From positions 6,092-70,091 of the forward strand of contig JBGTFZ010000112.1 of assembly GCA_041746955.1 (NCBI GenBank): DNA of 64,000 nt, written 5' to 3'. The translations under genes and the position numbers were made by a program. Below the pieces are notes generated by a model. That model searched no databases, was not told the DNA's origin, and worked only from the letters and a program-made list of their open reading frames with translations. This DNA is from Bryobacteraceae bacterium. GTDB taxonomy: Bacteria > Acidobacteriota > Terriglobia > Bryobacterales > Bryobacteraceae. This document shows, piece after piece, positions 4,882 through 14,949 of the stretch. Every line of letters starts with the position of its first letter. Position 1 is the first letter of the stretch.

Positions 4882-5571
4882 ATGCACACGGGCGCAAGCC
4901 CAGCCAAGGCGCTGGTGCTTTTTGGCCCCCCTGGTTCGGGGAAAGGCACTCAGGCGAAGATGCTGACGCACTCCCTGAAGTGTCCGCACATCTCGACGGG
5001 GGACATGCTTCGGGACCGCGTCCGCGCCGGCGATTCTGTCGGCACGAGAGTCCGGGGACTATTGAAGAGCGGGCATCTTGTGCCCGACGAACTGGTAAAC
5101 GAGATGGTGATGGACCGGATCGCACAGCCCGACTGCCAAGGCGGCTTCATCCTCGACGGTTATCCCCGTACGCTGCAGCAAGCCCGGCGGCTGATCGAGG
5201 CCCTCGAAGAACGTCAGGTGAAACCCGTCGTCGTCCACCTGAAAGTGGACGAGGAGAAGCTGGTGCAACGGCTGACGAACCGCAGGCTGTGCCCGCAGTG
5301 CGGAACACTCTACAACGTTCTGCTGAAGCCGCCCATCGTTCCCGGACGCTGCGACATCGAAGGCGCGCGGCTGATCGTGCGGGAGGACGACAAGGAACTC
5401 GTCATCCGCCAGCGGTTCGAAGCGTATGAGAAGCTGACGCGTCCCGTGATTCGCTTCTTTGAGAACAGTGTGCCCTTCTTCGCCGTAGAGGCCTCCGACG
5501 CTCCGCCGCACACCATCTTCCTTGAGATCGGCGCGTTTGTGGCAAACGGAAGCTCGGGAGGCGGTAAGTGA
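4882..5571 (+). CDS. adk: Adenylate kinase (zinc-lid type)
   Basis: 229 aa. P-loop GPPGSGKGTQ, then GFILDGYPRT, and a lid with CPQCG...PGRCD. The start could be slightly downstream. Confidence 0.9.
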   Translation: MHTGASPAKALVLFGPPGSGKGTQAKMLTHSLKCPHISTGDMLRDRVRAGDSVGTRVRGLLKSGHLVPDELVNEMVMDRIAQPDCQGGFILDGYPRTLQQARRLIEALEERQVKPVVVHLKVDEEKLVQRLTNRRLCPQCGTLYNVLLKPPIVPGRCDIEGARLIVREDDKELVIRQRFEAYEKLTRPVIRFFENSVPFFAVEASDAPPHTIFLEIGAFVANGSSGGGK

Positions 5572-6338
5572 TCATCCGTAAGAGCGCGTCGGAGCTCGAA
5601 AAGATGCGGAAGTCGGGACTGCTGGTCTACGAGATTCTGCAGAAGCTCTCCGCGATGGTCGCCGAAGGCGTCTCCACCTGGGATCTGGAAGTGGCGGCGG
5701 AGGCGATGGTAAACGACGCAGGCGCCAAGCCCGCCTTTAAAGGCTACTATTCGCAGGCCGCGGGCACGAAGTATCCCTACGTGCTGTGCACCTCCCTCAA
5801 CGCCGAAATCATACACGGGTTTCCGTCGCCGAAAAAGGTATTCAAGGCTGGAGACATCATCTCCATCGATACGGGCGTGTCGCTGGACGGCTACTACGGA
5901 GATTCCGCCGTTACGGTTCCGGTGCCGCCCATATCGCCGGAGACCGACAAACTGCTGCGCGTCACCCGCGAGTCTCTTGAACTTGCCATCTGCCAGGCGC
6001 GCGCCGGAAACCGGTTGTTCGACATCTGCGGCACGGTGGAGAAGCACGTCAAGGCGAACGGCTTCTCCGTCGTCCGCGAGTTCGTCGGCCACGGAATCGG
6101 CACGTCGCTGCATGAAGAGCCGCAGGTCCCGAATTACATCGACCGCCGGAACGACAATCCCCGCCTGAAAGAAGGCATGACGCTGGCGATCGAGCCGATG
6201 GTGAACACGGGCAAGCCCGATGCCAAGGTTCTGAAGGACCGCTGGACGGCGGTGGCGGTGGATGGCCGGAATTCCGCCCACTTTGAGCATGTGGTCGCCA
6301 TCACCGCCGACGGCCCTTGGGTACTGACGCGCCCTTAG
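5568..6338 (+). CDS. map: Type I methionyl aminopeptidase
   Basis: 256 aa. Contains HGFP, DIISIDTG, VREFVGHGIG, EPMVN and SAHFEHVVAIT motifs. ATGA-type overlap with adk. Confidence 0.95.
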   Translation: MIIRKSASELEKMRKSGLLVYEILQKLSAMVAEGVSTWDLEVAAEAMVNDAGAKPAFKGYYSQAAGTKYPYVLCTSLNAEIIHGFPSPKKVFKAGDIISIDTGVSLDGYYGDSAVTVPVPPISPETDKLLRVTRESLELAICQARAGNRLFDICGTVEKHVKANGFSVVREFVGHGIGTSLHEEPQVPNYIDRRNDNPRLKEGMTLAIEPMVNTGKPDAKVLKDRWTAVAVDGRNSAHFEHVVAITADGPWVLTRP

Positions 6339-6380
6339 CTACACTCTCCTTACGAACTTCGCCAGCTTGTTTCTGCTGGC
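6268..6380. repeat. Direct repeat copy 1 (3' end of map plus downstream sequence)
   Basis: ggaattccgcccactttgagcatg...ttagctacactctccttacgaacttcgccagcttgtttctgctggc recurs at 7592-7687 with a few substitutions and an ~18-bp gap. Confidence 0.85.
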
Positions 6381-6483: not shown

Positions 6484-6831
6484 ATGGCGGCGAAAAACAC
6501 GGCGCAAGCTCCACTCACTCCCGCAGTGCTGCACATCCTGCTGGCGCTTTCGACCGGGGAGCGGCACGGGTACGGAATCATGAAACAGGTGCAGGCGGAC
6601 TCGCAGGGCACGGCGAAGATGGGCCCGGGGACGCTGTATGGATCGATGGGGCGGATGATGGAGGCCGGGCTGATCCGGGAAAGCGATAAGCGGGTCGATC
6701 ACGAGATGGACGACGAGCGGCGGATCTATTACGAGCTCACAGGCGCGGGGCGGGCGGCGCTAAAAGCGGAGTTGAAGCGGTATCGCGGCGTGGTGGCGTT
6801 GGCGGGAGGACGTTTGGCGCATGGCCACTAA
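6484..6831 (+). CDS. PadR family transcriptional regulator
   Basis: 115 aa. The winged-helix signature LHILLALSTGERHGYGIMKQV....GPGTLYGSMGRMMEAGLI is typical PadR. Confidence 0.85.
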   Translation: MAAKNTAQAPLTPAVLHILLALSTGERHGYGIMKQVQADSQGTAKMGPGTLYGSMGRMMEAGLIRESDKRVDHEMDDERRIYYELTGAGRAALKAELKRYRGVVALAGGRLAHGH

Positions 6832-7579
6832 CGTCGCGGACCGGCGCTACCGGAGTTGGTATGCGATGCTGCTGCGGCTGTATCCGCGGCCTTTCCGTGA
6901 GCGGTTCGGCGAGGGGATGGCGCAGACATTTCACGACTTGTGCCGGGAACACAGGGACGCCAGGCGGGGACTATTCGGGCTCGCGCTGTGGATCTTCTTC
7001 GAGACGTTGGTGGGAATCGTAAGGGAGAACACAACTCATATGTCGCAACTGGGAAAGACGATGCTGCGTGTGGCGCTGGTGGCGTTGGGTTTGTTGATGG
7101 TGCCCTTGGCCGCTTCGCGCGTGGTGGAGGGATGGAACTGGGGCCCGGGCGCGTTCGTGTTTACCTATGTCCTGTTCTTCGGAACAGGGATGGCGTATGC
7201 GCTGATCGCCAGGAAGATGAACGCGTGGGCGTACAAGGCGGCCGTCGGACTCGCGCTGCTGGCGGGGTTCGTGCTGGGGTGGGCCACCATGGTCCATATG
7301 TCGGAAACGGAAAATCCGGTGAACCTGGTGTACTTCGGCGTACTCGCGGTGGGGGCCGCCGGGGCCGGGTTGGCGCGGCTGGAGGCGCGAGGGATGGCTC
7401 GCGCGTTGTTCGCAATGGCGGCGGCGCTGGCGGTGGCGTGGGTAATTACCCAGGTGCTGTCGCCGGACGCGCCGGCGGGGCCTGTCTGGAATATCGGGGT
7501 CATCCATGGCGGGTTTGTGCTGTTGTTCGCCGCGGCGGGTCTGCTGTTCCGGCACGCGAGTTTGAACGAATCGAAGTGA
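6821..7579 (+). CDS. Membrane protein with permease-prefix-like N-terminus (PadR-associated)
   Basis: 252 aa. The N-terminus RSWYAMLLRLYPRPFRERFGEGM resembles the prefix domain seen next to PadR genes in Acidobacteria. Several hydrophobic helices follow. Overlaps the PadR stop by 11 nt. Confidence 0.6.
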   Translation: MATNVADRRYRSWYAMLLRLYPRPFRERFGEGMAQTFHDLCREHRDARRGLFGLALWIFFETLVGIVRENTTHMSQLGKTMLRVALVALGLLMVPLAASRVVEGWNWGPGAFVFTYVLFFGTGMAYALIARKMNAWAYKAAVGLALLAGFVLGWATMVHMSETENPVNLVYFGVLAVGAAGAGLARLEARGMARALFAMAAALAVAWVITQVLSPDAPAGPVWNIGVIHGGFVLLFAAAGLLFRHASLNESK

Positions 7580-7591
7580 GACGAGGCCGCC

Positions 7592-7687
7592 GGAATTCCG
7601 CCCACTTTGACCATGTCGTAGCTATCACCGCCGACGGTCCCTTAGCTACACTCTCCTTATGAACTTCGCCAGCTTGTTTCTGCTGGC
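7592..7687. repeat. Direct repeat copy 2 (degenerate duplicate of the map 3' end plus the start of the interrupted downstream gene)
   Basis: Aligns to 6268-6380 and encodes a remnant ..NSAHFDHVVAITADGP. It differs by an ~18-bp deletion and about 5 substitutions. Here the triplet ATG (7659) replaces ACG of copy 1. Confidence 0.85.
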
Positions 7688-7734
7688 AGGTCTCCACGTT
7701 GCAGCCCTGGCCCAGCTTGTCCCGCCCTCATTTT
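7659..7734 (+). pseudogene. 5' fragment (signal peptide) of a gene split by the outer IS1595-family element
   Basis: ATG 7659 gives MNFASLFLLAGLHVAALAQLVPPSF. This runs in frame across the insertion into ..SVPTTYSGEGYK at 14950 onward once 7735-14949 is removed. Confidence 0.75.
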
Positions 7735-7768
7735 GGTAATAATATAGTTCGCAACTCACGCGGCCTGG
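7727..7768. repeat. Outer element left end: 8-bp target duplication (7727-7734) plus terminal inverted repeat
   Basis: CTCATTTT is followed by GGTAATAATATAGTTCGCAACTCACGCGGCCTGG. The partner is at 14908-14949. Confidence 0.85.
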
Positions 7769-7792
7769 TGGCGTAGGCCGGAAGATTGGGTC

Positions 7793-7957
7793 TCAGTGCG
7801 CCTTCTTTTGACGCTTAGCCTTCTGCTGCTCTTTCTTCCACTTCTCTTCTGCTGCAAGTAGATCGGCCTTGGATACGGTGAGTACAGACCGCAGAGCGTT
7901 GCTCATGCGCTCCGATTCGGAGTTGCCAGGTACGTGCGGTGCTGATGCTGGTTTCAT
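7793..7957 (-). CDS. Small basic protein (54 aa), last gene of the cargo operon
   Basis: Not in the ORF track (under 60 aa). ATG 7957 is preceded by GGAGGG. It translates to MKPASAPHVPGNSESERMSNALRSVLTVSKADLLAAEEKWKKEQQKAKRQKKAH. It resembles the 71-aa ORF at 10668-10883. Confidence 0.55.
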   Translation of the reverse strand: MKPASAPHVPGNSESERMSNALRSVLTVSKADLLAAEEKWKKEQQKAKRQKKAH

Positions 7958-7971
7958 GTTGTCCCTCCGGT

Positions 7972-8418
7972 TTAGAACTGAAGCTTATCCTGTTGATTGG
8001 ATTCGGACGCGCGCTTAGCAGCGGCTATGACCTCTAGACTCATGGGAATTTCGAGCCGCTTGCCGCCCTCTACAATCTCCTGAATGGTTACGATGCTGAT
8101 CTGATCGTAGCTTCGCCCCATGGTCTCGTGCCGGTACTGCCCTGCTGCCTTGGCCTCTTTTAACATTGGGCCACTTGGCTTCTCAAGCGTTATCAGAACG
8201 GCCAGCGCCGCCTGTTCCCGGCCCATGTCACCGCGCAGTGTGGCGATGTCGCTACGCTTCACACCCCCGGATTTAACTTGGAAGATGATCTTGGCGTTGT
8301 CGTGTTTGCCCGTCATGAAGTAAGCCCGCGCATCAATCCCAGCGTCCGCGCCTCTTTTCTCATTGATGACCGCCCGGTTGCTCGTGTACGTGAGCACAGC
8401 CCACTTCTCAAATTCCTT
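7972..8418 (-). pseudogene. 3' fragment of the methyltransferase-nuclease fusion gene: Mrr-like (PD-(D/E)xK) restriction endonuclease domain
   Basis: FEKWAVLTYTSNRAVINEKRGADAGIDARAYF...IIFQVKSGGVKRSDIATLRGDM...AVLITLEKPS matches the nuclease domain commonly fused C-terminally to beta-class DNA methyltransferases. The frame continues from 11402 once the inner IS is removed. Confidence 0.8.
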
Positions 8419-8440
8419 GGTAAGAATATACTTGACTAAG
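8411..8440. repeat. Inner element left end: 8-bp target duplication (8411-8418) plus 22-bp terminal inverted repeat
   Basis: AATTCCTT is followed by GGTAAGAATATACTTGACTAAG. The exact reverse complement is at 11372-11393, followed by AATTCCTT. Confidence 0.9.
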
Positions 8441-8466
8441 GAACCGATTCCCGGCATACTTGGTTC

Positions 8467-9411
8467 ATGGCACACGAACCCAAGACGCTCCAGGAAGCCA
8501 TTCAGTTCTTCTCGGACCTCGACAACTGCCAGAACTACCTTGTAGCGAAGCGCTGGGCCAATGGCGTCGTGTGCCCTACCTGCGGATCGAATGACGTTCG
8601 CTACCTTGCCAACCAGCGCCGTTGGGAGTGCAAGGCGAAGCACTCCAAGAAGCAATTCTCGATCAAGGTCGGGACCATCTTCGAAGACTCCCCGATCGGC
8701 CTAGACAAGTGGCTTGCAGCGGTATGGATGATTACGAACGCGAAGAACGGCATTTCGTCTTGGGAGATTCACCGCGCTCTTGGTGTCACGCAAAAGACCG
8801 CTTGGTTTATGCTCCATCGCGTTCGTTTGGGTCTTCAGTCGAATGATGGGGGCAAGCTGTCCGGTGAAGTCGAAGTCGATGAATCCTTCATCGGCGGCAA
8901 GGCCCGCAACATGCACGCTGTGAAGCGTGCGGAGCGGATGACAGCGGGATCGAACAAGGGAAAGACCATCGCGGTCGCCATTGTCGAGCGTGGCGGCAAG
9001 GTCAAGACTACCGTTGTCGAGCGCCGTCGAAAAAAGGAACTTCAGGCCGCAGTCCGTGAGCACGTCGAAGTTGGCAGCGCGATCTTCTCCGATGAGCTTC
9101 TGTCCTACGAAGGACTGTCCGAAGACTATCGCCACGCCGTCATCAATCACGCTGTCGAATATGCGCGGGGCAACGTGCACACGAACCATGCCGAGAACTT
9201 CTGGAGCCTCTTGAAGAGAGGAATTCACGGCACGTACGTGAACGTGGAACCTTTCCACCTGTTTCGCTACCTTGACGAACAAGCGTTTCGCTACAACAAC
9301 CGGAAGTTGACCGATGGTCAGCGGTTTGAAACGGCGGTTCAGCAGATCGTTGGCAAGCGCCTCACGTATGCCGATCTCACGGGCAAGGCAGGGTCAGACG
9401 CGGAAGCGTGA
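8467..9411 (+). CDS. IS1595 family (ISXO2-like) DDE transposase
   Basis: 314 aa. It has an N-terminal zinc ribbon (CPTCGS...C), then VEVDESFIGGKARNMH, FSDELLSY and HTNHAENFWSLLKRG. It is clearly related to the second copy at 13942-14892. Confidence 0.9.
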   Translation: MAHEPKTLQEAIQFFSDLDNCQNYLVAKRWANGVVCPTCGSNDVRYLANQRRWECKAKHSKKQFSIKVGTIFEDSPIGLDKWLAAVWMITNAKNGISSWEIHRALGVTQKTAWFMLHRVRLGLQSNDGGKLSGEVEVDESFIGGKARNMHAVKRAERMTAGSNKGKTIAVAIVERGGKVKTTVVERRRKKELQAAVREHVEVGSAIFSDELLSYEGLSEDYRHAVINHAVEYARGNVHTNHAENFWSLLKRGIHGTYVNVEPFHLFRYLDEQAFRYNNRKLTDGQRFETAVQQIVGKRLTYADLTGKAGSDAEA

Positions 9412-9468
9412 TGCCCCGCCAAGGGCGCGGGAAACGCCGCTAGCGGCGGGGCCGTCTAAGTCTATACA

Positions 9469-10281
9469 ATGCCTGAGTCGATGATCCAACTTGAAATCAC
9501 GTGGGGGGGGACTGTCAACGGCTTGTCGGAGCACAGGCTGAGCGTAGCTGCATTTGGCGAACCCCTGAAATTGTTGCTCAGTGCGATTAGGCGAAAGGCC
9601 AACAGCAAACTTCGTGAAGCCGCTGACCGAAGAGATGTTGATGTTGGCAGGTTCAAAGCTGAGGCGCGGAAGATTGACATTGAGATTGAATCGATCACTC
9701 ACGGTTCCGGCGGGATCAGCAGCGTTGTGACCGTTGAAGCCCCGGTTTCTGGACAACATTCCCTCTGGCCAGATGGGCTAGCCGAGGATTCCCTGAAAGA
9801 TGTTCTCGGCGACATCGAATCCGAGGGGAGGGGCAACCGTAGGAATAGGGCCGTTCGGGCATATCTTGCGGCTCTAGACCCCCGAGTTACGGCACAAGAC
9901 TACACGGCTAGTGTTAATGGGACCGTTCTAGCCAGGGTTCATTTGGGAACATTCATTATCTCTGGCGAACTTAGCGATGTCCCCTATATTGTAGAGCCGC
10001 GCGGTCGAATTGTGGGCCTTGGATTCGAACCTGGCCGCCCATTCATACGAATAAAGACAGCCGACGTAAATCAATCGGAAACTACATTTGCGGCCACCCA
10101 GGGACAAGTTGACGAGGCTCTCGAATTAAGGGACCGGGAGGTTCGAGTCCTGAGCGTAGTATCGGCTCTTGGCAAGAAGGTTTTGCGAATACAAGCCAGT
10201 GAAGATCCTCCCGTCCGACTCGACGAGAACGCCTATATTTTCGAGAAATGGAGCGTAGTCCTTGAAAGGCTGGCTCAATGA
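9469..10281 (+). CDS. Hypothetical 270-aa protein, upstream partner of the Doc-like toxin
   Basis: The ORF has no motif I recognise. Its stop overlaps the start of the Doc gene (ATGA at 10278-10281). By eye it is collinear with the 273-aa protein at 12983-13804. The start could be ATG 9481. Confidence 0.6.
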   Translation: MPESMIQLEITWGGTVNGLSEHRLSVAAFGEPLKLLLSAIRRKANSKLREAADRRDVDVGRFKAEARKIDIEIESITHGSGGISSVVTVEAPVSGQHSLWPDGLAEDSLKDVLGDIESEGRGNRRNRAVRAYLAALDPRVTAQDYTASVNGTVLARVHLGTFIISGELSDVPYIVEPRGRIVGLGFEPGRPFIRIKTADVNQSETTFAATQGQVDEALELRDREVRVLSVVSALGKKVLRIQASEDPPVRLDENAYIFEKWSVVLERLAQ

Positions 10282-10709
10282 AGCCATGGGAATCGCTAAT
10301 CTCTCTTGAGCGGATCATGGAGTTGCACGGCAAGGCAATGACGAAGGTTGGGCAAGCGCCAACCGTGGATCGGAAAACGCGGGACTGCGTTGACGGACGA
10401 TTAGGTAATGCTTGGACAGGAGAATCTTATGTGGGGGATGCCAGGGATGCAAGACCGGGACTGTGTTTCGCTGGCTTTCTACTGTTTTACCTAGTCAGAG
10501 ACCATTGCTTCCCTGATGGAAACAAGCGAATCGGTTGGGTCGCAGCGATGGAGATCTTGGCAAGGATTGGCCTTACTGTTAAGGCTACAGATGATGAAGC
10601 CACTGACTTCGTTACCAGAATCGCAGATCAAGAACGGGACGATTCTGTCAAGTCGGGGCTAGATGCCTCACTTTGGTTGGCTGGCAGACTTGAAGCACCA
10701 GCCGTCTGA
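10278..10709 (+). CDS. Fic/Doc family protein (death-on-curing-type toxin)
   Basis: 143 aa. The motif DHCFPDGNKRIGW matches the Doc signature HxFxDGNKR. Confidence 0.8.
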   Translation: MKPWESLISLERIMELHGKAMTKVGQAPTVDRKTRDCVDGRLGNAWTGESYVGDARDARPGLCFAGFLLFYLVRDHCFPDGNKRIGWVAAMEILARIGLTVKATDDEATDFVTRIADQERDDSVKSGLDASLWLAGRLEAPAV

Positions 10710-10883
10710 CGGGCGGTCGCTTTCTGGCAACGTTCGCTTCTTCGGCCCGCGCTTCTTAGGGTTCTTGTCCGCTTCCTTCTTGTAGGCTTCCATCCGCTTC
10801 TTCATCTCATTGCGGGGCACGCCGAGAAGCTGGCTCATCGCGTGGTCGAACGCCTCGAACTCCGGGTTCCTTGATGTTGCCAT
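10668..10883 (-). CDS. Small basic protein (71 aa)
   Basis: An internal Met of track ORF 10668-11120 gives MATSRNPEFEAFDHAMSQLLGVPRNEMKKRMEAYKKEADKNPKKRGPKKR.... It resembles the 54-aa ORF at 7793-7957. There is no clear SD, and its 3' end overlaps the Doc gene by 42 nt. Confidence 0.4.
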   Translation of the reverse strand: MATSRNPEFEAFDHAMSQLLGVPRNEMKKRMEAYKKEADKNPKKRGPKKRTLPESDRPSDGWCFKSASQPK

Positions 10884-10986
10884 TCTGTGGACATCGTAAC
10901 CCACTACGTTCGCGCTTGAAAGTGAAAAACATTCTGCTCTTGCCGGAAAACATTCAGGTGGTAAAATGTTGTGAGAGGTACCCGAA

Positions 10987-11313
10987 ATGAGCACCGACGA
11001 ACAAGACGCGATCATAGGCCGAATGATCCGGGAACGCTCGGAAGTGCAGAAGAGCGTAGCTGCCTTGCGTGAGGATTTAAAGGCGAAGGCGCGGTCGATG
11101 GCTGAACTTGTATCAGCCATCGAAGGACTCGTGAATGGGGAAGCGCGACCGGCCTACATTTCAGACCCAACGAACGACCACACCCAGCACGCCATTTCAA
11201 AACTTCAGTCGGCGCCGGAGAAGGAGGCTATCCTTCAATCTCTCCACCAATTCAACGGGGCGTCGAAGCGCCTGTTGGATCTCAAGAACAACCTCGCCGA
11301 ATTCGGCGCGTAA
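10987..11313 (+). CDS. Hypothetical 108-aa protein (helical or coiled-coil-like)
   Basis: The ORF is divergent from 10668-10883 and has no recognisable motif. It is the last gene before the inner right end. Confidence 0.4.
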   Translation: MSTDEQDAIIGRMIRERSEVQKSVAALREDLKAKARSMAELVSAIEGLVNGEARPAYISDPTNDHTQHAISKLQSAPEKEAILQSLHQFNGASKRLLDLKNNLAEFGA

Positions 11314-11338
11314 GAAAATTCTAACCCCACCGGGCCTG

Positions 11339-12478
11339 TCACGCCGCCTTCAGCGTACCGACCGCCATTCGCTTAGTCAAGTATATTCTTACCAATTCCT
11401 TTCGGAGTCGGTCGTCTTGCTTGTGCGCGAGAGCCTGGGCGGAGGCTATATCACGCGGGATACCGTCCGCTTGGACTTGAGAGAGTACGCCTACCCCCAA
11501 TGACTCCTCAAGACGCCTCAGGACGAGCGAAATAGAATGATAGGTAATATCGATTCCAATCCACTCGCGTTTTAGCAACTGGGCCGCTACGATTGTAGTT
11601 CCGCAACCGCAATAGGCATCTAGCACCACCTGCCCCTCTTGGCTGCACGCCTTTATGATCCGCTCCAAAAGGGCTAGGGGCTTTTGCGTGGGATATCCGA
11701 GGCGCTCAGCTGATGTCGCTTGAAGTGAGTTGATGTCAGTCCACCAGTCTTCTGGAACCTTTCCTTCGTCGAGATAATACTTATAGTATTTCGTCTCCCC
11801 CTTAGCGTTCTTCGTTCCATAAACCAAGCGATACTCGCGGCCATCGGAATCGGTTTCCATGCGCCCGCCGAAACTCTTCTTCCCGCTTCTCATTTCTATA
11901 CGAACCTGATCACCATTGAACACATACTCAGAAGATTTTGAGTAGAAAAAGATGACATCATGCTTGCGCCCGAAGCGGTTCTTGCTCTTGCCGCCGTGGC
12001 TGTAACACCATACGATCTCGTTTATGAAGTCGCCACCGTCCGAACAGAAAACCGCATCCAGAATCAGCTTTAGGTAATGACTTGAAGTAGGGTCACAATG
12101 CAGGAAAAACGTACCCGTTCTCTTGAGGACGCGACGAATCTCGGTAACGCGAAGCGCAATACTGATGAGATACGCCAACAATCCCCCTTCCCCAAGGACA
12201 GGGTGTAGGCCCTTGAGTAGGTCCACAAGCTGAGGCTGAAAGCGACCATGGTCGTTGGATAGAACTTCCGCGTAACCAGTAGTAGCCCTGGCATCCCAAG
12301 TCCACGTGTCCATGAACGCCTGCGCCTGCGCACGGTCCTCTCCCCCTACGTTGTTGTAAATCTGGTTGTAGTTCCGCTTCGAGTTGAAAGGCGGATCGAT
12401 GTAGCATAGATCAACAGTCTCATCTTTGATCTTCTTCCGAAGAATGTCCAGGTTGTCGCCGTAGAAGAGTTTGTTCAT
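11339..12478 (-). CDS. Beta-class N6-adenine (N4/N6 family) DNA methyltransferase, truncated by the IS insertion
   Basis: 379 aa. Motif IV IDPPFNS lies near the N-terminus and motif I VLDAYCGCGTT near the C-terminus, which is the beta-class order. The native sequence ends at ..DDRLRKE (11394). The final 18 codons (LVRIYLTKRMAVGTLKAA) are read from the IS end. Confidence 0.85.
   Translation of the reverse strand: MNKLFYGDNLDILRKKIKDETVDLCYIDPPFNSKRNYNQIYNNVGGEDRAQAQAFMDTWTWDARATTGYAEVLSNDHGRFQPQLVDLLKGLHPVLGEGGLLAYLISIALRVTEIRRVLKRTGTFFLHCDPTSSHYLKLILDAVFCSDGGDFINEIVWCYSHGGKSKNRFGRKHDVIFFYSKSSEYVFNGDQVRIEMRSGKKSFGGRMETDSDGREYRLVYGTKNAKGETKYYKYYLDEGKVPEDWWTDINSLQATSAERLGYPTQKPLALLERIIKACSQEGQVVLDAYCGCGTTIVAAQLLKREWIGIDITYHSISLVLRRLEESLGVGVLSQVQADGIPRDIASAQALAHKQDDRLRKELVRIYLTKRMAVGTLKAA
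11372..11401. repeat. Inner element right end: 22-bp terminal inverted repeat plus 8-bp target duplication (11394-11401)
   Basis: CTTAGTCAAGTATATTCTTACC is followed by AATTCCTT. Confidence 0.9.
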
Positions 12479-12990
12479 ATGCGCTCTGCTTGGGCTCCAG
12501 GTGTCGGCCCTAGGGGCAGGAATGGTTCCGAAGAGACCGGTGCCTTGATTGGGAAGTTGTTCTCTGTTAGCGCGGAATATTTATCCAGTGGCCTGTCGTA
12601 GGTATGGAACTCTGTGACTTTTAGTTGTTCTGCGGTCGCCAGATGAAGAGCGTCGGCAGGCTTCAGTACCCAACCTTTTTCGATTGCCGCCCTCATCAAT
12701 CGTCGTGCCCGTTCGGCGATTGGTTCATACACCTCCACTAGCTTTATTGGTGAGCCGATCCGCCAGAGGTTCCCGATCTTGTCTTCGATCCCTGGATCTA
12801 GGAGTTTGTTGTCCTGCTCAACCTTGGCGAATGCTACTTCTGTGATGCTGATAACAGAGGTGACAATCTGGAAGGTTTCCCCGCTCCGCTTCATCAGCGG
12901 CGCGATGTGCTGGATTCTATCTTCGGTGCCGTTAATGTACGACAGCGGGACGCAGGCATCCCAGTAGATGAATGGGAGGCTGTCAGGCAT
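12475..12990 (-). CDS. PIN domain nuclease (VapC-like)
   Basis: Acidic residues fall in PIN order: IYWDACV, SITEV, KPADALHLATA, TYD. The stop overlaps the methyltransferase ATG (ATGA at 12475-12478). The start is taken at MPDSLPF (12990); the alternative is 13011. Confidence 0.75.
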   Translation of the reverse strand: MPDSLPFIYWDACVPLSYINGTEDRIQHIAPLMKRSGETFQIVTSVISITEVAFAKVEQDNKLLDPGIEDKIGNLWRIGSPIKLVEVYEPIAERARRLMRAAIEKGWVLKPADALHLATAEQLKVTEFHTYDRPLDKYSALTENNFPIKAPVSSEPFLPLGPTPGAQAERI

Positions 12991-13804
12991 CGCGCCCCCT
13001 TCGGATGGCATCTTCTGGCGATAGATCGTTTAGCGATGGCGCCACGCCGCGAGCAGTCTCATAATTCGGAGCGGAAGGCGGCTCATCTAAAAGAGCGATA
13101 CTCCTGACTTGACGGATCGCTAAAGGCCTTCCATTCAGTGGATCGCGGGTGATGAGGCCTTCAATGAACGCCAGTCTGCCCCAAGCGTTACGCAGCAATT
13201 CTTCTTTGCCCTCGGCTATGTAGCAGCCGACGGCCTTGTCATAGAGCAGATCGTAAACCGTAAAGCGGAGAGCGCCCCTATTGGAAAGAGCCTGGACCCT
13301 GCCTTGAATCGCACCGAAAGAAGACGCCGCCGTGGCCGGCGCTTTAATCGCAAGCAGTTCCGAGACAGTGCCGACTGCCGCCGCTGTCTTGGCTTTGGGG
13401 AAGACAAGCAGCCTGGGAGGGCTATCCTGGCTCGTGGGGATCACAGCATCCCTTTGAGCGGTCTCGAACCTCACAGCCTTAACGCGACGGTCCCGTATCG
13501 AGATTATTTTGTTTACAGCCCGGCGAACACGCGGGGACACCTGGACCGGCGTGTGGTTCTCAAGGGCCGTTCCCACTGCCGCATAATCGCGGGCGACTTG
13601 CTCTGCGGCTTGGGGATCACTAAGGGCTCTTGCGGTCGCTATGGCGCTGCTGACCTGAAGGTCATCAATAACCCAATCTAGTTCGGGCGATCCGGCGTCC
13701 TCAGAGAGAGCGCTGACTAGTTCGGCAAAGCGCCCTATGGTGCGGGCGAACTCGCCAAGGGGAATCTCCCCATCAAGAGCGATTGTGATGGTATCGTCTG
13801 GCAT
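12983..13804 (-). CDS. Hypothetical 273-aa protein, upstream partner of the PIN nuclease
   Basis: GGGAGG lies 8 nt upstream of ATG 13804. The 3' end overlaps the PIN start by 8 nt. No known motif. By eye it is collinear with the 270-aa protein at 9469-10281. Confidence 0.65.
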   Translation of the reverse strand: MPDDTITIALDGEIPLGEFARTIGRFAELVSALSEDAGSPELDWVIDDLQVSSAIATARALSDPQAAEQVARDYAAVGTALENHTPVQVSPRVRRAVNKIISIRDRRVKAVRFETAQRDAVIPTSQDSPPRLLVFPKAKTAAAVGTVSELLAIKAPATAASSFGAIQGRVQALSNRGALRFTVYDLLYDKAVGCYIAEGKEELLRNAWGRLAFIEGLITRDPLNGRPLAIRQVRSIALLDEPPSAPNYETARGVAPSLNDLSPEDAIRRGRDA

Positions 13805-13863
13805 GATTCAGCCTCCCTATGCTACGATCAAGTCACCTGAAGATCATTAGCATTTCAGAAGGA

Positions 13864-13889
13864 GCCGTGATTCGTAGTCACGGCTTTTT
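13864..13889. terminator. Hairpin between the transposase and the cargo operon
   Basis: GCCGTGA-ttcgtag-TCACGGC is followed by TTTTT on the plus strand. On the minus strand, where the genes lie, the U-tract is poor, so function is uncertain. Confidence 0.3.
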
Positions 13890-13941
13890 CTTGTCCGGCT
13901 CCAAGGGACGCTTTCCGCGCCTTTGCCTCAGGGCTTCTTTC

Positions 13942-14892
13942 TCAGTTAGCTTGCGATGATCGCTCCTCCATCTGCTTGCCCGTCAGGTGATCGAAAGTCA
14001 GCCGCTTCCCCACGATACCCGAAACCGCCAAGCCGAATCTCTCTGCATCGGTCATCTTGCGATGGTTGTAGCGGAAGCACTGTTCGTCCAAGTAGCGGAA
14101 CAAATGGAACGGCTCGACACTCACGTAGGTTCCGCCGATGCCGCGCTTGAGCAAGCTCCAGAAGTTCTCCATGCCATTGGTGTGGACATTTCCACGGACG
14201 TACTCTTCGGCGTGGTTGATGACCTTGTGAGCGTAGTCGGAAGCAAGCCCGTCGTAGCTTAGCAACTCGTCAGTGTAGACGGTCGAGCCGGGCGCGACGT
14301 GCTGCCGAATCTCAGCTTGGACTTCATGCTTGCGGCGGGTCTCTACAACGGTGGCCTTGACCTTGCCCTTACGCTCTAGCATTCCCATGACGATGACCTT
14401 CCCCACGGTTCCGCGCCCGTTGATTCTGGCCTTTCGCTTGGAGACGTGCATGTTACGAGCTTTACCGCCGATGAACGATTCATCGGCCTCAACTTCCCCC
14501 GACAGTTTTTGTTCGGGGTCCAAGCCGAGGGCAAGGCGAATCCTATGATTCATGAACCATGCAGACTTCTGAGTTACGCCAACGGTGCGGTGAATCTCAT
14601 AGCTGCTCACGCCGTTCTTGCAGTTGACCACCATCCACATCGCCAAGAGCCACTTATCTAACCCGAGTGGCGAACTCTCGAAGATGGTCCCGGTCTTTGT
14701 GGTGAACTGCCGAAGTGCATGCCTGCTGCCACATTGCCAGCGGTTGTACTTCTCCTGAAACAGGACGTTCTTGCTGCCGCATCGCGGGCAAGTCACACCT
14801 TCAGGCCAGCGGTGTGCGACCAAGTAGTCCCGGCAGTTGTCGGGATCGGCGAAGTAAAGGACCGCTTCTTGCAGGGTGTTCGGGCTGGCCAT
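13942..14892 (-). CDS. IS1595 family (ISXO2-like) DDE transposase
   Basis: 316 aa. It has a zinc ribbon (CPRCGS...C), then VEADESFIGGKARNMH, YTDELLSY and HTNGMENFWSLLKRG. The ATG is 49 nt inside the right end of the outer element. Confidence 0.9.
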   Translation of the reverse strand: MASPNTLQEAVLYFADPDNCRDYLVAHRWPEGVTCPRCGSKNVLFQEKYNRWQCGSRHALRQFTTKTGTIFESSPLGLDKWLLAMWMVVNCKNGVSSYEIHRTVGVTQKSAWFMNHRIRLALGLDPEQKLSGEVEADESFIGGKARNMHVSKRKARINGRGTVGKVIVMGMLERKGKVKATVVETRRKHEVQAEIRQHVAPGSTVYTDELLSYDGLASDYAHKVINHAEEYVRGNVHTNGMENFWSLLKRGIGGTYVSVEPFHLFRYLDEQCFRYNHRKMTDAERFGLAVSGIVGKRLTFDHLTGKQMEERSSQAN

Positions 14893-14907
14893 GACTCAAT
14901 AATAGGG

Positions 14908-14949
14908 CCGGTCCGTGTGAGTTGTCAACTATATTATTGCCCTCATTTT
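14908..14949. repeat. Outer element right end: terminal inverted repeat plus 8-bp target duplication (14942-14949)
   Basis: The reverse complement from 14941 reads GGCAATAATATAGTTGACAACTCACACGGACCGG. It is followed on the plus strand by CTCATTTT. Confidence 0.85.

What the first reader, a model, noticed from the sequence alone, without database searches (positions are those of the whole stretch)
7793..13804. Translationally coupled four-gene cargo operon: unknown 273-aa protein, PIN nuclease, methyltransferase-Mrr-like nuclease fusion, small basic ORF
The outer transposon carries four serially linked genes on the minus strand. The 273-aa gene (13804-12983) overlaps the PIN start by 8 nt. The PIN stop overlaps the methyltransferase ATG (ATGA at 12475-12478). 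The reconstructed methyltransferase-nuclease gene ends at 7972. A 54-aa ORF with a GGAGGG ribosome-binding site starts 14 nt later. I do not recognise this combination as a named defence system. It joins a self-marking enzyme (DPPF N6A methyltransferase) and two nuclease folds (PD-(D/E)xK Mrr-like and PIN) with an unknown large protein in one coupled operon on a mobile element. It could be a composite restriction/abortive-infection module rather than an R-M system that merely sits next to a toxin-antitoxin pair.
Basis: partly seen in the sequence, partly recalled or inferred. Interest (0 to 1): 0.8.

Follow-up and report, generated by a model that had tools for sequence, protein, structure and literature searches.

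The report
Toxin pair plus methylase on transposon
The four linked genes are real, but they are a mosaic riding on a jumping-gene element: a conserved toxin-antitoxin-like pair (an uncharacterised OB-fold protein plus a PIN nuclease) and its small partner gene, into which a separately mobile DNA methylase-nuclease gene was later inserted.

Summary
All stated coordinates, overlaps and the in-frame reconstruction check out. The genes lie in an IS1595-family transporter IS (7735-14941, 34-nt inverted repeats, 8-bp duplication CTCATTTT). A second such element (8419-11393, duplication AATTCCTT) splits the methylase gene.

The four genes are not one conserved system. The 273-aa protein and PIN are a tight pair: PIN follows directly in 26 of 30 loci. 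The 54-aa gene follows PIN directly in the two closest relatives, which lack any methylase. The methylase-Mrr-like fusion belongs to a very large family and had no p273 or PIN neighbour in six other contexts.

The 273-aa protein belongs to an unannotated family (2148 cluster representatives, no Pfam hit). Its model shows an N-terminal α/β domain, an OB fold and a conserved Arg-rich C-terminal helix. I read it as an unusual antitoxin. The inner element carries an analogous OB-fold protein plus Doc pair.

The linkage is not pure chance. Two distant loci also place this fusion type beside the pair, once in the same order with no gap. One locus has an MmeI-like enzyme and three have type I R-M genes nearby.

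Verdict: a modular mosaic with a new TA variant and a loose R-M association.

The parts
7735..14941 (.). Outer IS1595-family transporter IS (tIS). Inverted repeats at 7735-7768 and 14908-14941. 8-bp target duplication CTCATTTT at 7727-7734 and 14942-14949.
   Evidence: A 26-nt stretch of the same terminal repeat matches at 100% at the right end of a 2.7-kb relative in L024.
13942..14892 (-). Outer transposase, 316 aa (DDE_Tnp_IS1595 plus zinc ribbon)
   Evidence: E 5e-44 and 2.2e-9. An 11/12 sigma-70-like match lies at 14928-14899, overlapping the terminal repeat.
12983..13804 (-). p273: uncharacterised OB-fold protein, inferred antitoxin or partner of PIN
   Evidence: No Pfam, NCBIfam, PADLOC or PHROG hit. 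The family has 2148 representatives. AF2 model: pLDDT 82.8, pTM 0.73. OB-fold matches in the PDB.
12475..12990 (-). PIN-domain nuclease (171 aa), inferred toxin
   Evidence: PF01850 at E 1.9e-11. Acidic residues in YWD, TEV, PAD and TYD are conserved among relatives. It lies directly downstream of p273 homologues in 26 of 30 loci.
11402..12478 (-). N-terminal part of the methylase-Mrr-like fusion: the complete beta-class N6A methylase domain. As it stands, it is a 379-aa ORF ending at 11339 inside the inner element.
7972..8418 (-). C-terminal part of the fusion: Mrr-like PD-(D/E)xK-type domain with a D...QVK signature
7793..7957 (-). p54: small basic protein, a conserved passenger gene of the basic element
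   Evidence: Homologous ORF 20 nt after PIN in L024 and L025. z = 15.7 against shuffles.
8419..11393 (.). Inner IS1595-family tIS that interrupts the fusion gene. Perfect 22-nt terminal repeats. 8-bp duplication AATTCCTT at 8411-8418 and 11394-11401.
8467..9411 (+). Inner transposase, 314 aa, 64% identical to the outer one
9469..10281 (+). p270: second uncharacterised long protein with an OB-fold barrel and a conserved C-terminal helix; inferred partner of Doc
   Evidence: Doc is directly downstream in L022 and L023.
10278..10709 (+). Doc/Fic-family toxin
   Evidence: Pfam Fic at 6.6e-8. TIGR01550 at 41.3 bits, cut-off 38.65. PHROG Doc-like toxin at 1.8e-13.
10668..10883 (-). 71-aa ORF weakly similar to p54 (status uncertain)
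   Evidence: z = 5.0; 1 of 500 shuffles reach the score
10987..11313 (+). 108-aa ORF of unknown function inside the inner tIS
   Evidence: no family

Best explanation
The locus is two nested IS1595-family transporter insertion sequences, each carrying a toxin-antitoxin-like cargo.

The basic outer element is transposase, p273, PIN and p54 between 34-nt inverted repeats. p273 and PIN form a type II TA-like module. PIN is an RNase-type toxin with its acidic active-site residues in place. p273 is an atypically long antitoxin. I infer that its invariant Arg-rich C-terminal helix (PEDAIRRGRDA) blocks the acidic PIN site. Its N-terminal α/β domain and OB fold take the place of the usual AbrB, RHH or HTH DNA-binding domain. 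They presumably bind nucleic acid, either for autoregulation or to sense a trigger.

The module most likely stabilises the element or acts as an abortive-infection or defence cargo.

A promoter-less, independently mobile gene for a single-chain beta-class N6-adenine methylase fused to an Mrr-like domain was later inserted between PIN and p54. That event rewrote the last ~11 codons of PIN and created the ATGA overlap.

The inner tIS, carrying an analogous OB-fold protein plus Doc pair, later landed in the linker between the methylase and Mrr-like domains. This detached the nuclease-like domain but left a complete methylase ORF.

Shown: the anatomy, the family memberships, the pair conservation, the mosaic history and the predicted folds. 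Inferred: toxin neutralisation by the C-terminal tail, the role of the OB fold, and the biological function.
For: - Anatomy and in-frame reconstruction.
- The p273/PIN pair is conserved in Acidobacteriota, Chloroflexota and Actinomycetota, in unrelated contexts, usually with a 4-nt overlap.
- L024 and L025 elements (2.7 kb, a 26-nt terminal-repeat stretch 100% identical in L024) run transposase-p273-PIN-p54 with no methylase.
- The window's PIN is collinear with relatives up to SSEPFLPL and then diverges.
- The window's fusion is 72-79% identical to fusions that are solitary or sit directly after an IS1595 transposase.
- The same tight start-to-stop junction occurs behind three different upstream genes: PIN, the transposase and a type ISP fragment.
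- p273 model: pLDDT 82.8; a barrel at 161-238 matches OB folds of LysRS, XseA, Teb1 and Rim1; a terminal helix lies at 263-272. The C-terminal motif is nearly invariant in 35 sequences.
- p270 model has the same order of secondary-structure elements and also matches OB folds. Doc follows it in both other loci examined.
- tIS are described as IS-like elements with passenger genes, so far restricted to the IS1595 and IS66 families (bioRxiv 10.1101/2021.05.26.445724).
Against: - No experiment or complex model shows that p273 neutralises PIN.
- p273 lacks any recognised antitoxin DNA-binding domain.
- The OB assignment rests on Foldseek E-values of about 1e-3, and only the barrel aligns.
- p273 and p270 show no sequence relationship (hhalign probability 0.2%). 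Their likeness is architectural only, and the p270 model is of moderate quality (pLDDT 73.9).
- Three independent adjacencies to the same fusion type and four to other R-M enzymes hint that the pair is not fully autonomous.
- Four p273 loci lack PIN: L010, L048, the L041 fragment and the IS-disrupted L026.
Confidence: 0.62

Rival explanations
1. One reading: the four genes form one obligate composite restriction and abortive-infection system, in which the methylase-nuclease and the p273/PIN pair need each other.
For: - Tight serial linkage in the window.
- L044 repeats p273-PIN-fusion in the same order with no gap, at 37-42% identity. L042 has the fusion 153 bp away.
Against: - Only 2 of about 29 other p273 loci carry the fusion.
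- The closest relatives of this element lack it, and there p54 follows PIN directly.
- None of six fusion contexts has p273 or PIN.
- The ATGA overlap follows from the fusion gene's own ATGAAC start and occurs behind unrelated genes.
- The fusion is already broken here while p273, PIN and p54 remain intact.
Confidence: 0.06
2. p273/PIN is an R-M-linked guard in the manner of PrrC. It stays latent beside a restriction enzyme and fires when that enzyme is inhibited, or when foreign nucleic acid is sensed through the OB fold. It would attach facultatively to different R-M types.
For: - R-M genes are the only recurrent non-transposase neighbours among 134 flanking ORFs of 20 loci (Pfam, PADLOC).
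- The neighbours are type I hsdR in L004, L008 and L014; in L004 the pair sits between hsdS and hsdR.
- There is an MmeI-type enzyme 17 nt upstream on the same strand in L047.
- The methylase-Mrr fusion is adjacent in the window, L042 and L044.
Against: - About three quarters of loci show no R-M gene within 4.5 kb.
- Twelve further loci have only an IS1595 transposase upstream.
- TA modules and R-M systems both gather in defence islands and on mobile elements, so adjacency alone is weak evidence.
- There is no similarity to PrrC.
- I ran no matched control census.
Confidence: 0.17
3. p273 is not an antitoxin. It is the nucleic-acid-binding subunit of a two-protein nuclease, in which the OB fold delivers substrate to PIN, and there is no toxin-neutralisation cycle.
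For: - p273 is large (273 aa). Its model has an OB fold matching ssDNA- and RNA-binding proteins.
- It has no classical antitoxin domain.
- Full-length structural matches to uncharacterised phage proteins exist.
Against: - The gene order (partner first, PIN second), the 4-8-nt overlaps, carriage on transposons and plasmids, and a nearly invariant basic C-terminal tail are the usual hallmarks of type II TA pairs.
- The parallel p270-Doc pair fits a TA pattern.
Confidence: 0.1

Closest known systems
VapBC-type type II toxin-antitoxin modules (PIN toxin)
   Same: A PIN-domain second gene with conserved acidic residues. The partner gene lies directly upstream and overlaps it. The pair is conserved across phyla and carried on mobile elements.
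   Different: The partner is 250-280 aa long. It has no AbrB, RHH, HTH or Phd domain and no Pfam family. Its model shows an α/β domain, an OB fold and a terminal helix. Neutralisation has not been shown.
Phd-Doc (for the inner element's pair)
   Same: A Doc/Fic toxin is preceded by an overlapping partner gene.
   Different: The partner is 270 aa with an OB-like barrel, not the ~73-aa Phd (size from my own knowledge). The family is tiny: 13 clusters.
Transporter IS (tIS) of the IS1595 family
   Same: An IS1595 DDE transposase with zinc ribbon, terminal inverted repeats, an 8-bp duplication, and passenger genes inside the repeats. Definition from bioRxiv 10.1101/2021.05.26.445724.
   Different: The passengers here are TA-like modules and an R-M-type gene, and one tIS is nested in the other. 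I found no description of these cargoes.
Single-chain restriction-modification enzymes (type IIC/IIG such as MmeI and BpuSI) and Mrr/MspJI nucleases
   Same: A methylase and a PD-(D/E)xK-type domain in one polypeptide. The D...QxK signature resembles the one I recall for MspJI (own knowledge; alignment).
   Different: The methylase is beta-class (N6_N4, related to MboIIA, RsrI and CcrM), and the nuclease-like domain is C-terminal. That domain also scores just under the cut-off of a Pfam family defined as an inactive endonuclease (26.7 bits, cut-off 27). In distant relatives the Q is replaced by S. Activity is unknown, and the gene is interrupted here.
PrrC-EcoprrI (anticodon nuclease inside a type I R-M locus)
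   Same: A latent RNase-type module sits inside or beside R-M loci. In L004 the pair lies between hsdS and hsdR. The PrrC biology is from my own knowledge.
   Different: There is no sequence or domain similarity to PrrC. It is a two-gene module. Most copies are not R-M-linked.

Membership tests
Type II TA, VapBC-like | The toxin is a PIN domain with the conserved acidic active-site residues | tested here: met
   PF01850 at E 1.9e-11. The D/E/D/D positions (YWD, TEV, PAD, TYD) are conserved in the 5-sequence alignment. L044 has N at the fourth position.
Type II TA, VapBC-like | Two adjacent co-oriented genes, antitoxin first, conserved as a pair in varied genomic contexts | tested here: met
   PIN is directly downstream in 26 of 30 loci, usually with a 4-nt overlap.
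Type II TA, VapBC-like | The antitoxin carries a recognised DNA-binding domain (AbrB, RHH, HTH or Phd/YefM) | tested here: not met
   No Pfam or NCBIfam hit for any of 35 members. The model shows an α/β domain plus an OB fold.
Type II TA, VapBC-like | The toxin is growth-inhibitory and is neutralised by direct binding of the antitoxin | not testable with these tools
   Needs expression assays or a model of the complex.
IS1595-family transporter IS | DDE_Tnp_IS1595 transposase with an N-terminal zinc ribbon | tested here: met
   both elements
IS1595-family transporter IS | Terminal inverted repeats and an 8-bp target-site duplication that enclose the passenger genes | tested here: met
Single-chain R-M enzyme (type IIC/IIG-like) | Complete DNA methylase motifs (DPPF and the FxGxG-type SAM motif) | tested here: met
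   IDPPF at residues 27-31 and LDAYCGCGTT near residue 290. PF01555 at E 7.5e-41.
Single-chain R-M enzyme (type IIC/IIG-like) | A catalytically competent nuclease domain | tested here: inconclusive
   Mrr_cat at 24.7 bits (cut-off 21) and NA-iREase1 ('inactive') at 26.7 bits (cut-off 27). D and K are invariant, and the middle residue is Q or S. No relative in the PDB by sequence.
Single-chain R-M enzyme (type IIC/IIG-like) | An intact gene in this genome | tested here: not met
   It is split by the inner tIS at the inter-domain linker.
Named anti-phage systems (PADLOC-DB 2.0) | Component proteins match the models of one named multi-gene system | tested here: not met
   Only generic MTase_II and MTase_III models hit the fusion. 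p273, PIN and p54 have no hits.
PrrC-like R-M-linked anticodon nuclease | Encoded within or next to an R-M locus | tested here: inconclusive
   7 of about 25 loci with enough flank.
PrrC-like R-M-linked anticodon nuclease | The PrrC domain organisation (ATPase plus anticodon-nuclease domains; own knowledge) | tested here: not met
   No ATPase or PrrC-related family hit. PIN plus an OB-fold protein is found instead.

The most novel reading that the evidence does not exclude
p273/PIN, and by analogy p270/Doc, would represent a class of TA-like modules whose long OB-fold 'antitoxin' acts as a nucleic-acid or R-M-status sensor. Such modules would attach repeatedly and independently to restriction enzymes of different types (methylase-Mrr fusion, MmeI-like, type I) as a second-line abortive-infection guard, and would spread as cargo of IS1595 transposons.
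Probability: 0.15. Interest if true: 0.75.

Novelty: new variant of a known kind. Interest (0 to 1): 0.42.

Why it matters
- It assigns a likely role and a fold to a sizeable protein family that carries no annotation: 2148 cluster representatives, with no Pfam, NCBIfam, PADLOC or PHROG model.
- It shows that IS1595 transporter ISs carry TA-like modules and R-M-type genes as cargo, and that these cargoes are assembled stepwise.
- It gives a testable lead: OB-fold 'long antitoxins' paired with different toxins (PIN, Doc) tend to sit beside restriction enzymes.
- It is also a caution. Tight overlaps between neighbouring genes on a mobile element can be junction by-products rather than signs of a shared function.

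Tried and rejected
- BLASTP and profile-profile comparison of p273 with p270 found no sequence relationship.
- A PDB sequence search with the p273 profile gave only noise, such as the myosin VI lever arm at E 0.11. Searches with PIN and with the Mrr-like domain found no relatives.
- PHROGs returned nothing except Doc.
- Lenient Pfam scans of all 35 family members found no shared family.
- The first genome scan with the broad alignment failed for lack of a conserved stretch, so I repeated it with closer sequences.
- A search for inverted repeats in L002 and L003 found no clear element ends.
- Literature searches for IS1595 passenger methylases, iREase or Mrr fusions, and OB-fold antitoxins found no description of these modules.
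- I considered that the small basic ORFs after PIN in L002 and L003, and after the fusion in L020, belong to the p54 family. I rejected this because the scores are no better than shuffles.
- I considered gene-by-gene GC content as evidence for a separate origin of the methylase. It does not discriminate: all cargo genes have lower GC3 than host genes.
- The promoter and terminator scan was not above shuffled expectation.

Full report
**Observation.**
- On the minus strand lie a 273-aa ORF (13804-12983) and a PIN-domain ORF. The PIN ATG at 12990 overlaps the 273-aa stop by 8 nt.
- A methylase ORF follows. Its ATG shares ATGA with the PIN stop (12475-12478).
- A 54-aa ORF (7957-7793) lies behind a GGAGGG, 14 nt after the stop of the reconstructed methylase-nuclease gene.
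- The methylase gene is interrupted by an element at 8419-11393. This element has perfect 22-nt terminal repeats and an 8-bp duplication, AATTCCTT.
- Removing 8419-11401 restores a 507-aa ORF in frame. It has a beta-class N6_N4 methylase domain (PF01555, E 7.5e-41; IDPPF at residues 27-31). Its C-terminal domain matches Mrr_cat (24.7 bits, cut-off 21) and NA-iREase1 (26.7 bits, cut-off 27).
- The whole set lies inside a larger element, 7735-14941. That element has 34-nt inverted repeats, an 8-bp duplication CTCATTTT and an IS1595-type transposase at 14892-13942.
- Both elements fit the published description of transporter ISs: IS-like elements with passenger genes, so far restricted to the IS1595 and IS66 families (bioRxiv 10.1101/2021.05.26.445724).

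**The conserved unit is p273 plus PIN.**
- The word-indexed search found 63 clusters of p273 relatives, all unnamed.
- A full profile search found 2148 representatives at E ≤ 0.001 and 523 at E ≤ 1e-30, nearly all 245-280 aa long.
- None of 35 members matches any Pfam family, even at E ≤ 1. NCBIfam, PADLOC and PHROGs are also silent.
- In loci fetched from genomes and metagenomes, a PIN gene follows the p273 homologue directly in 26 of 30 cases with usable downstream DNA. The usual overlap is 4 nt. The hosts are Acidobacteriota, Chloroflexota, Actinomycetota and others.
- The exceptions are L010, L048, the fragment L041 and the IS-disrupted L026.

**The basic element has no methylase.**
- The closest relatives (L024 and L025) have p273 at 70-71% and PIN at 78-80% identity to the window. 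In L024, 26 nt of the terminal repeat match the window at 100%. They are 2.7-kb elements that read transposase, p273, PIN, then a small ORF, then the right repeat.
- That small ORF is the homologue of p54 (MKPAAAPK...LTVSKEALL...; z = 15.7 against shuffles) and starts 20 nt after PIN.
- So p54 belongs with the pair, and in the window the methylase gene sits between PIN and p54.
- The window's PIN is collinear with its relatives up to SSEPFLPL. It then ends in 11 unrelated residues that run up to the TGA inside the methylase gene's own ATGAAC start.
- I infer that the methylase gene was inserted. A deletion in all the relatives would need more steps.

**The methylase-Mrr-like fusion is a mobile gene in its own right.**
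- The search returned its maximum of 8000 hits at E ≤ 1e-20. This total probably includes methylases without the Mrr-like domain. The best 120 are 64-79% identical to the query; nearly all cover 95-100% of it and most carry the same two domains.
- In Terracidiphilus (L017) and in L029-L031 the fusion gene is flanked by unrelated, mostly housekeeping genes.
- In L019-L021 it follows an IS1595 transposase with a 4-nt overlap.
- In L033 and L034 it splits a type ISP restriction gene, again with a 4-nt overlap.
- On the two plasmids whose surroundings I examined (pMLa of Mesorhizobium and a Microbacterium plasmid) it lies next to unrelated genes, including other TA-type genes.
- None of these six contexts has p273 or PIN.
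- No flanking sequence is shared between copies. Homology starts at the ATG and ends at the stop.
- The tight junction with whatever lies upstream therefore looks like a habit of this gene, not a PIN-specific link.

**What p273 looks like.**
- The AlphaFold2 model (35-sequence alignment, pLDDT 82.8, pTM 0.73) has an N-terminal α/β domain (1-123), a disordered linker (about 124-160), a five-stranded barrel (161-238) and a terminal helix (263-272).
- Foldseek against the PDB aligns only the barrel. Matches are the OB folds of lysyl-tRNA synthetase, ExoVII XseA, Teb1 and the SSB Rim1. E-values are about 2e-3 to 1e-2, and the TM-score normalised to the small targets is 0.5-0.6.
- Against predicted viral structures, three uncharacterised phage proteins match over the full length, with E-values from 2e-7 to 2e-5.
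- The last residues, PE(D/E)AIRRxRDA, are nearly invariant across the family.
- From the gene order, the overlaps and this basic tail, I infer that p273 is the antitoxin and that its tail covers the acidic PIN site. This is inference, not a result.

**A parallel module in the inner element.**
- The inner tIS encodes a 270-aa protein followed by Doc (TIGR01550 at 41.3 bits, cut-off 38.65).
- The p270 family has only 13 clusters. Doc follows p270 directly in both other loci examined.
- Its model is weaker (pLDDT 73.9, pTM 0.53). It has the same order of elements as p273: β, α, ββ, αα, ββ, a βββαββ barrel, then a terminal helix. Its barrel matches OB folds (LEF-3, Lin28 cold-shock domain, SSBs, Rim1).
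- There is no sequence relationship to p273.
- The likeness is therefore architectural. Common descent is unproven.

- Two metagenomic loci from one sample carry the pair next to the same type of fusion.
- L044 has p273, PIN and the fusion in the same order with no gap. The called GTG start of the fusion overlaps the PIN stop by 4 nt, and the next ATG overlaps it by 1 nt. A DDE_Tnp_1 (non-IS1595) transposase lies upstream. L042 has the fusion divergent, 153 bp from p273.
- The three instances are deeply diverged from each other: p273 37-42%, PIN 41-44%, fusion 37-47% identity.
- Each component in the window has much closer relatives that are unlinked. The window's linkage is therefore recent and probably independent of the other two.
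- L047 has an MmeI-family single-chain enzyme 17 nt upstream on the same strand.
- In L004 the pair lies between hsdS and hsdR of a type I system. L008 and L014 have hsdR within about 4 kb.
- Among 134 flanking ORFs from 20 loci, the only families that recur are the IS1595 transposase (5 ORFs), type I HsdR (3) and the fusion (2). PADLOC gives the same picture.
- So about 7 of 25 loci are R-M-linked.
- I could not run a matched control, so I cannot separate a functional link from the general clustering of defence and addiction genes.

**State of the locus today.**
- The inner tIS landed in the linker between the methylase and Mrr-like domains. It leaves a 379-aa ORF with all methylase motifs and detaches the nuclease-like domain.
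- Losing the nuclease part while keeping the methylase is the expected safe route of decay for an R-M enzyme (general knowledge). This would fit an active nuclease domain, but it is weak evidence.
- The domain's signature is D...QVK. D and K are invariant, while the Q is replaced by S in distant plasmid relatives.

**Verdict.**
- The locus is a stepwise mosaic on nested IS1595 transporter ISs.
- Its core is a new variant of a PIN toxin-antitoxin module, with an unannotated OB-fold partner family.
- The methylase-nuclease gene is an independent mobile cargo that associates with this pair repeatedly but facultatively.

Noticed in passing
window 6265-6380 and 7589-7687: The last ~115 bp of the methionine aminopeptidase gene (5568-6338), with a little downstream sequence, occurs twice at 90-95% identity. 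The copies flank a PadR-like gene (6484-6831) and a membrane-protein gene (6821-7579). This looks like an insertion with a long target duplication, just left of the outer element.
   Followed up: no
window 8419-11393: The interrupting element is itself a cargo-carrying IS1595 tIS. It encodes a transposase 64% identical to the outer one, a 270-aa OB-fold-like protein plus Doc, and two small ORFs.
   Followed up: partly
window 10668-10883 (minus strand): A 71-aa ORF inside the inner element is weakly similar to p54 (z = 5.0; 1 of 500 shuffles). It lies on the strand opposite the inner transposase.
   Followed up: partly
L033 1849-5015 and L034 554-3720: A fusion homologue (P0082; 71% identical to the window's fusion) sits between an ISP_coupler fragment and a Type_ISP_C fragment. 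It appears to have split a type ISP restriction gene.
   Followed up: no
L019/L020 4051-6473: An IS1595 transposase overlaps the start of a fusion homologue by 4 nt, so this methylase-nuclease gene can be the sole main cargo of a tIS. A 47-aa basic ORF follows it in L020 but is not demonstrably related to p54.
   Followed up: partly
L002 9333-9542 and L003 9297-9419: More distant IS1595/p273/PIN loci have a different small basic ORF right after PIN. The two are related to each other (z = 6.2) but not to p54.
   Followed up: partly
L024 (40-kb contig whose name ends in _c, possibly circular): The closest relative of the outer element sits on a plasmid-like contig. It has RepA_C, ParA, a resolvase, BrnT/BrnA and HicAB modules, and an MmeI-family gene about 5.5 kb from the element's left end.
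   Followed up: no
window 14899-14928 (minus strand): An 11/12 match to a sigma-70 promoter (TTGACA, 18 nt, TATTAT) overlaps the outer element's terminal repeat, upstream of the transposase. The number of promoter-like sites in the region is not above shuffled expectation.
   Followed up: no
p273 model against BFVD: Full-length structural matches to uncharacterised phage proteins: A0A8S5QA00 (labelled DUF6575), A0A8S5T657 and Leptospira phage LE1 Q6NE06, with E-values from 2e-7 to 2e-5. The two-domain architecture may therefore be wider than the sequence family.
   Followed up: no
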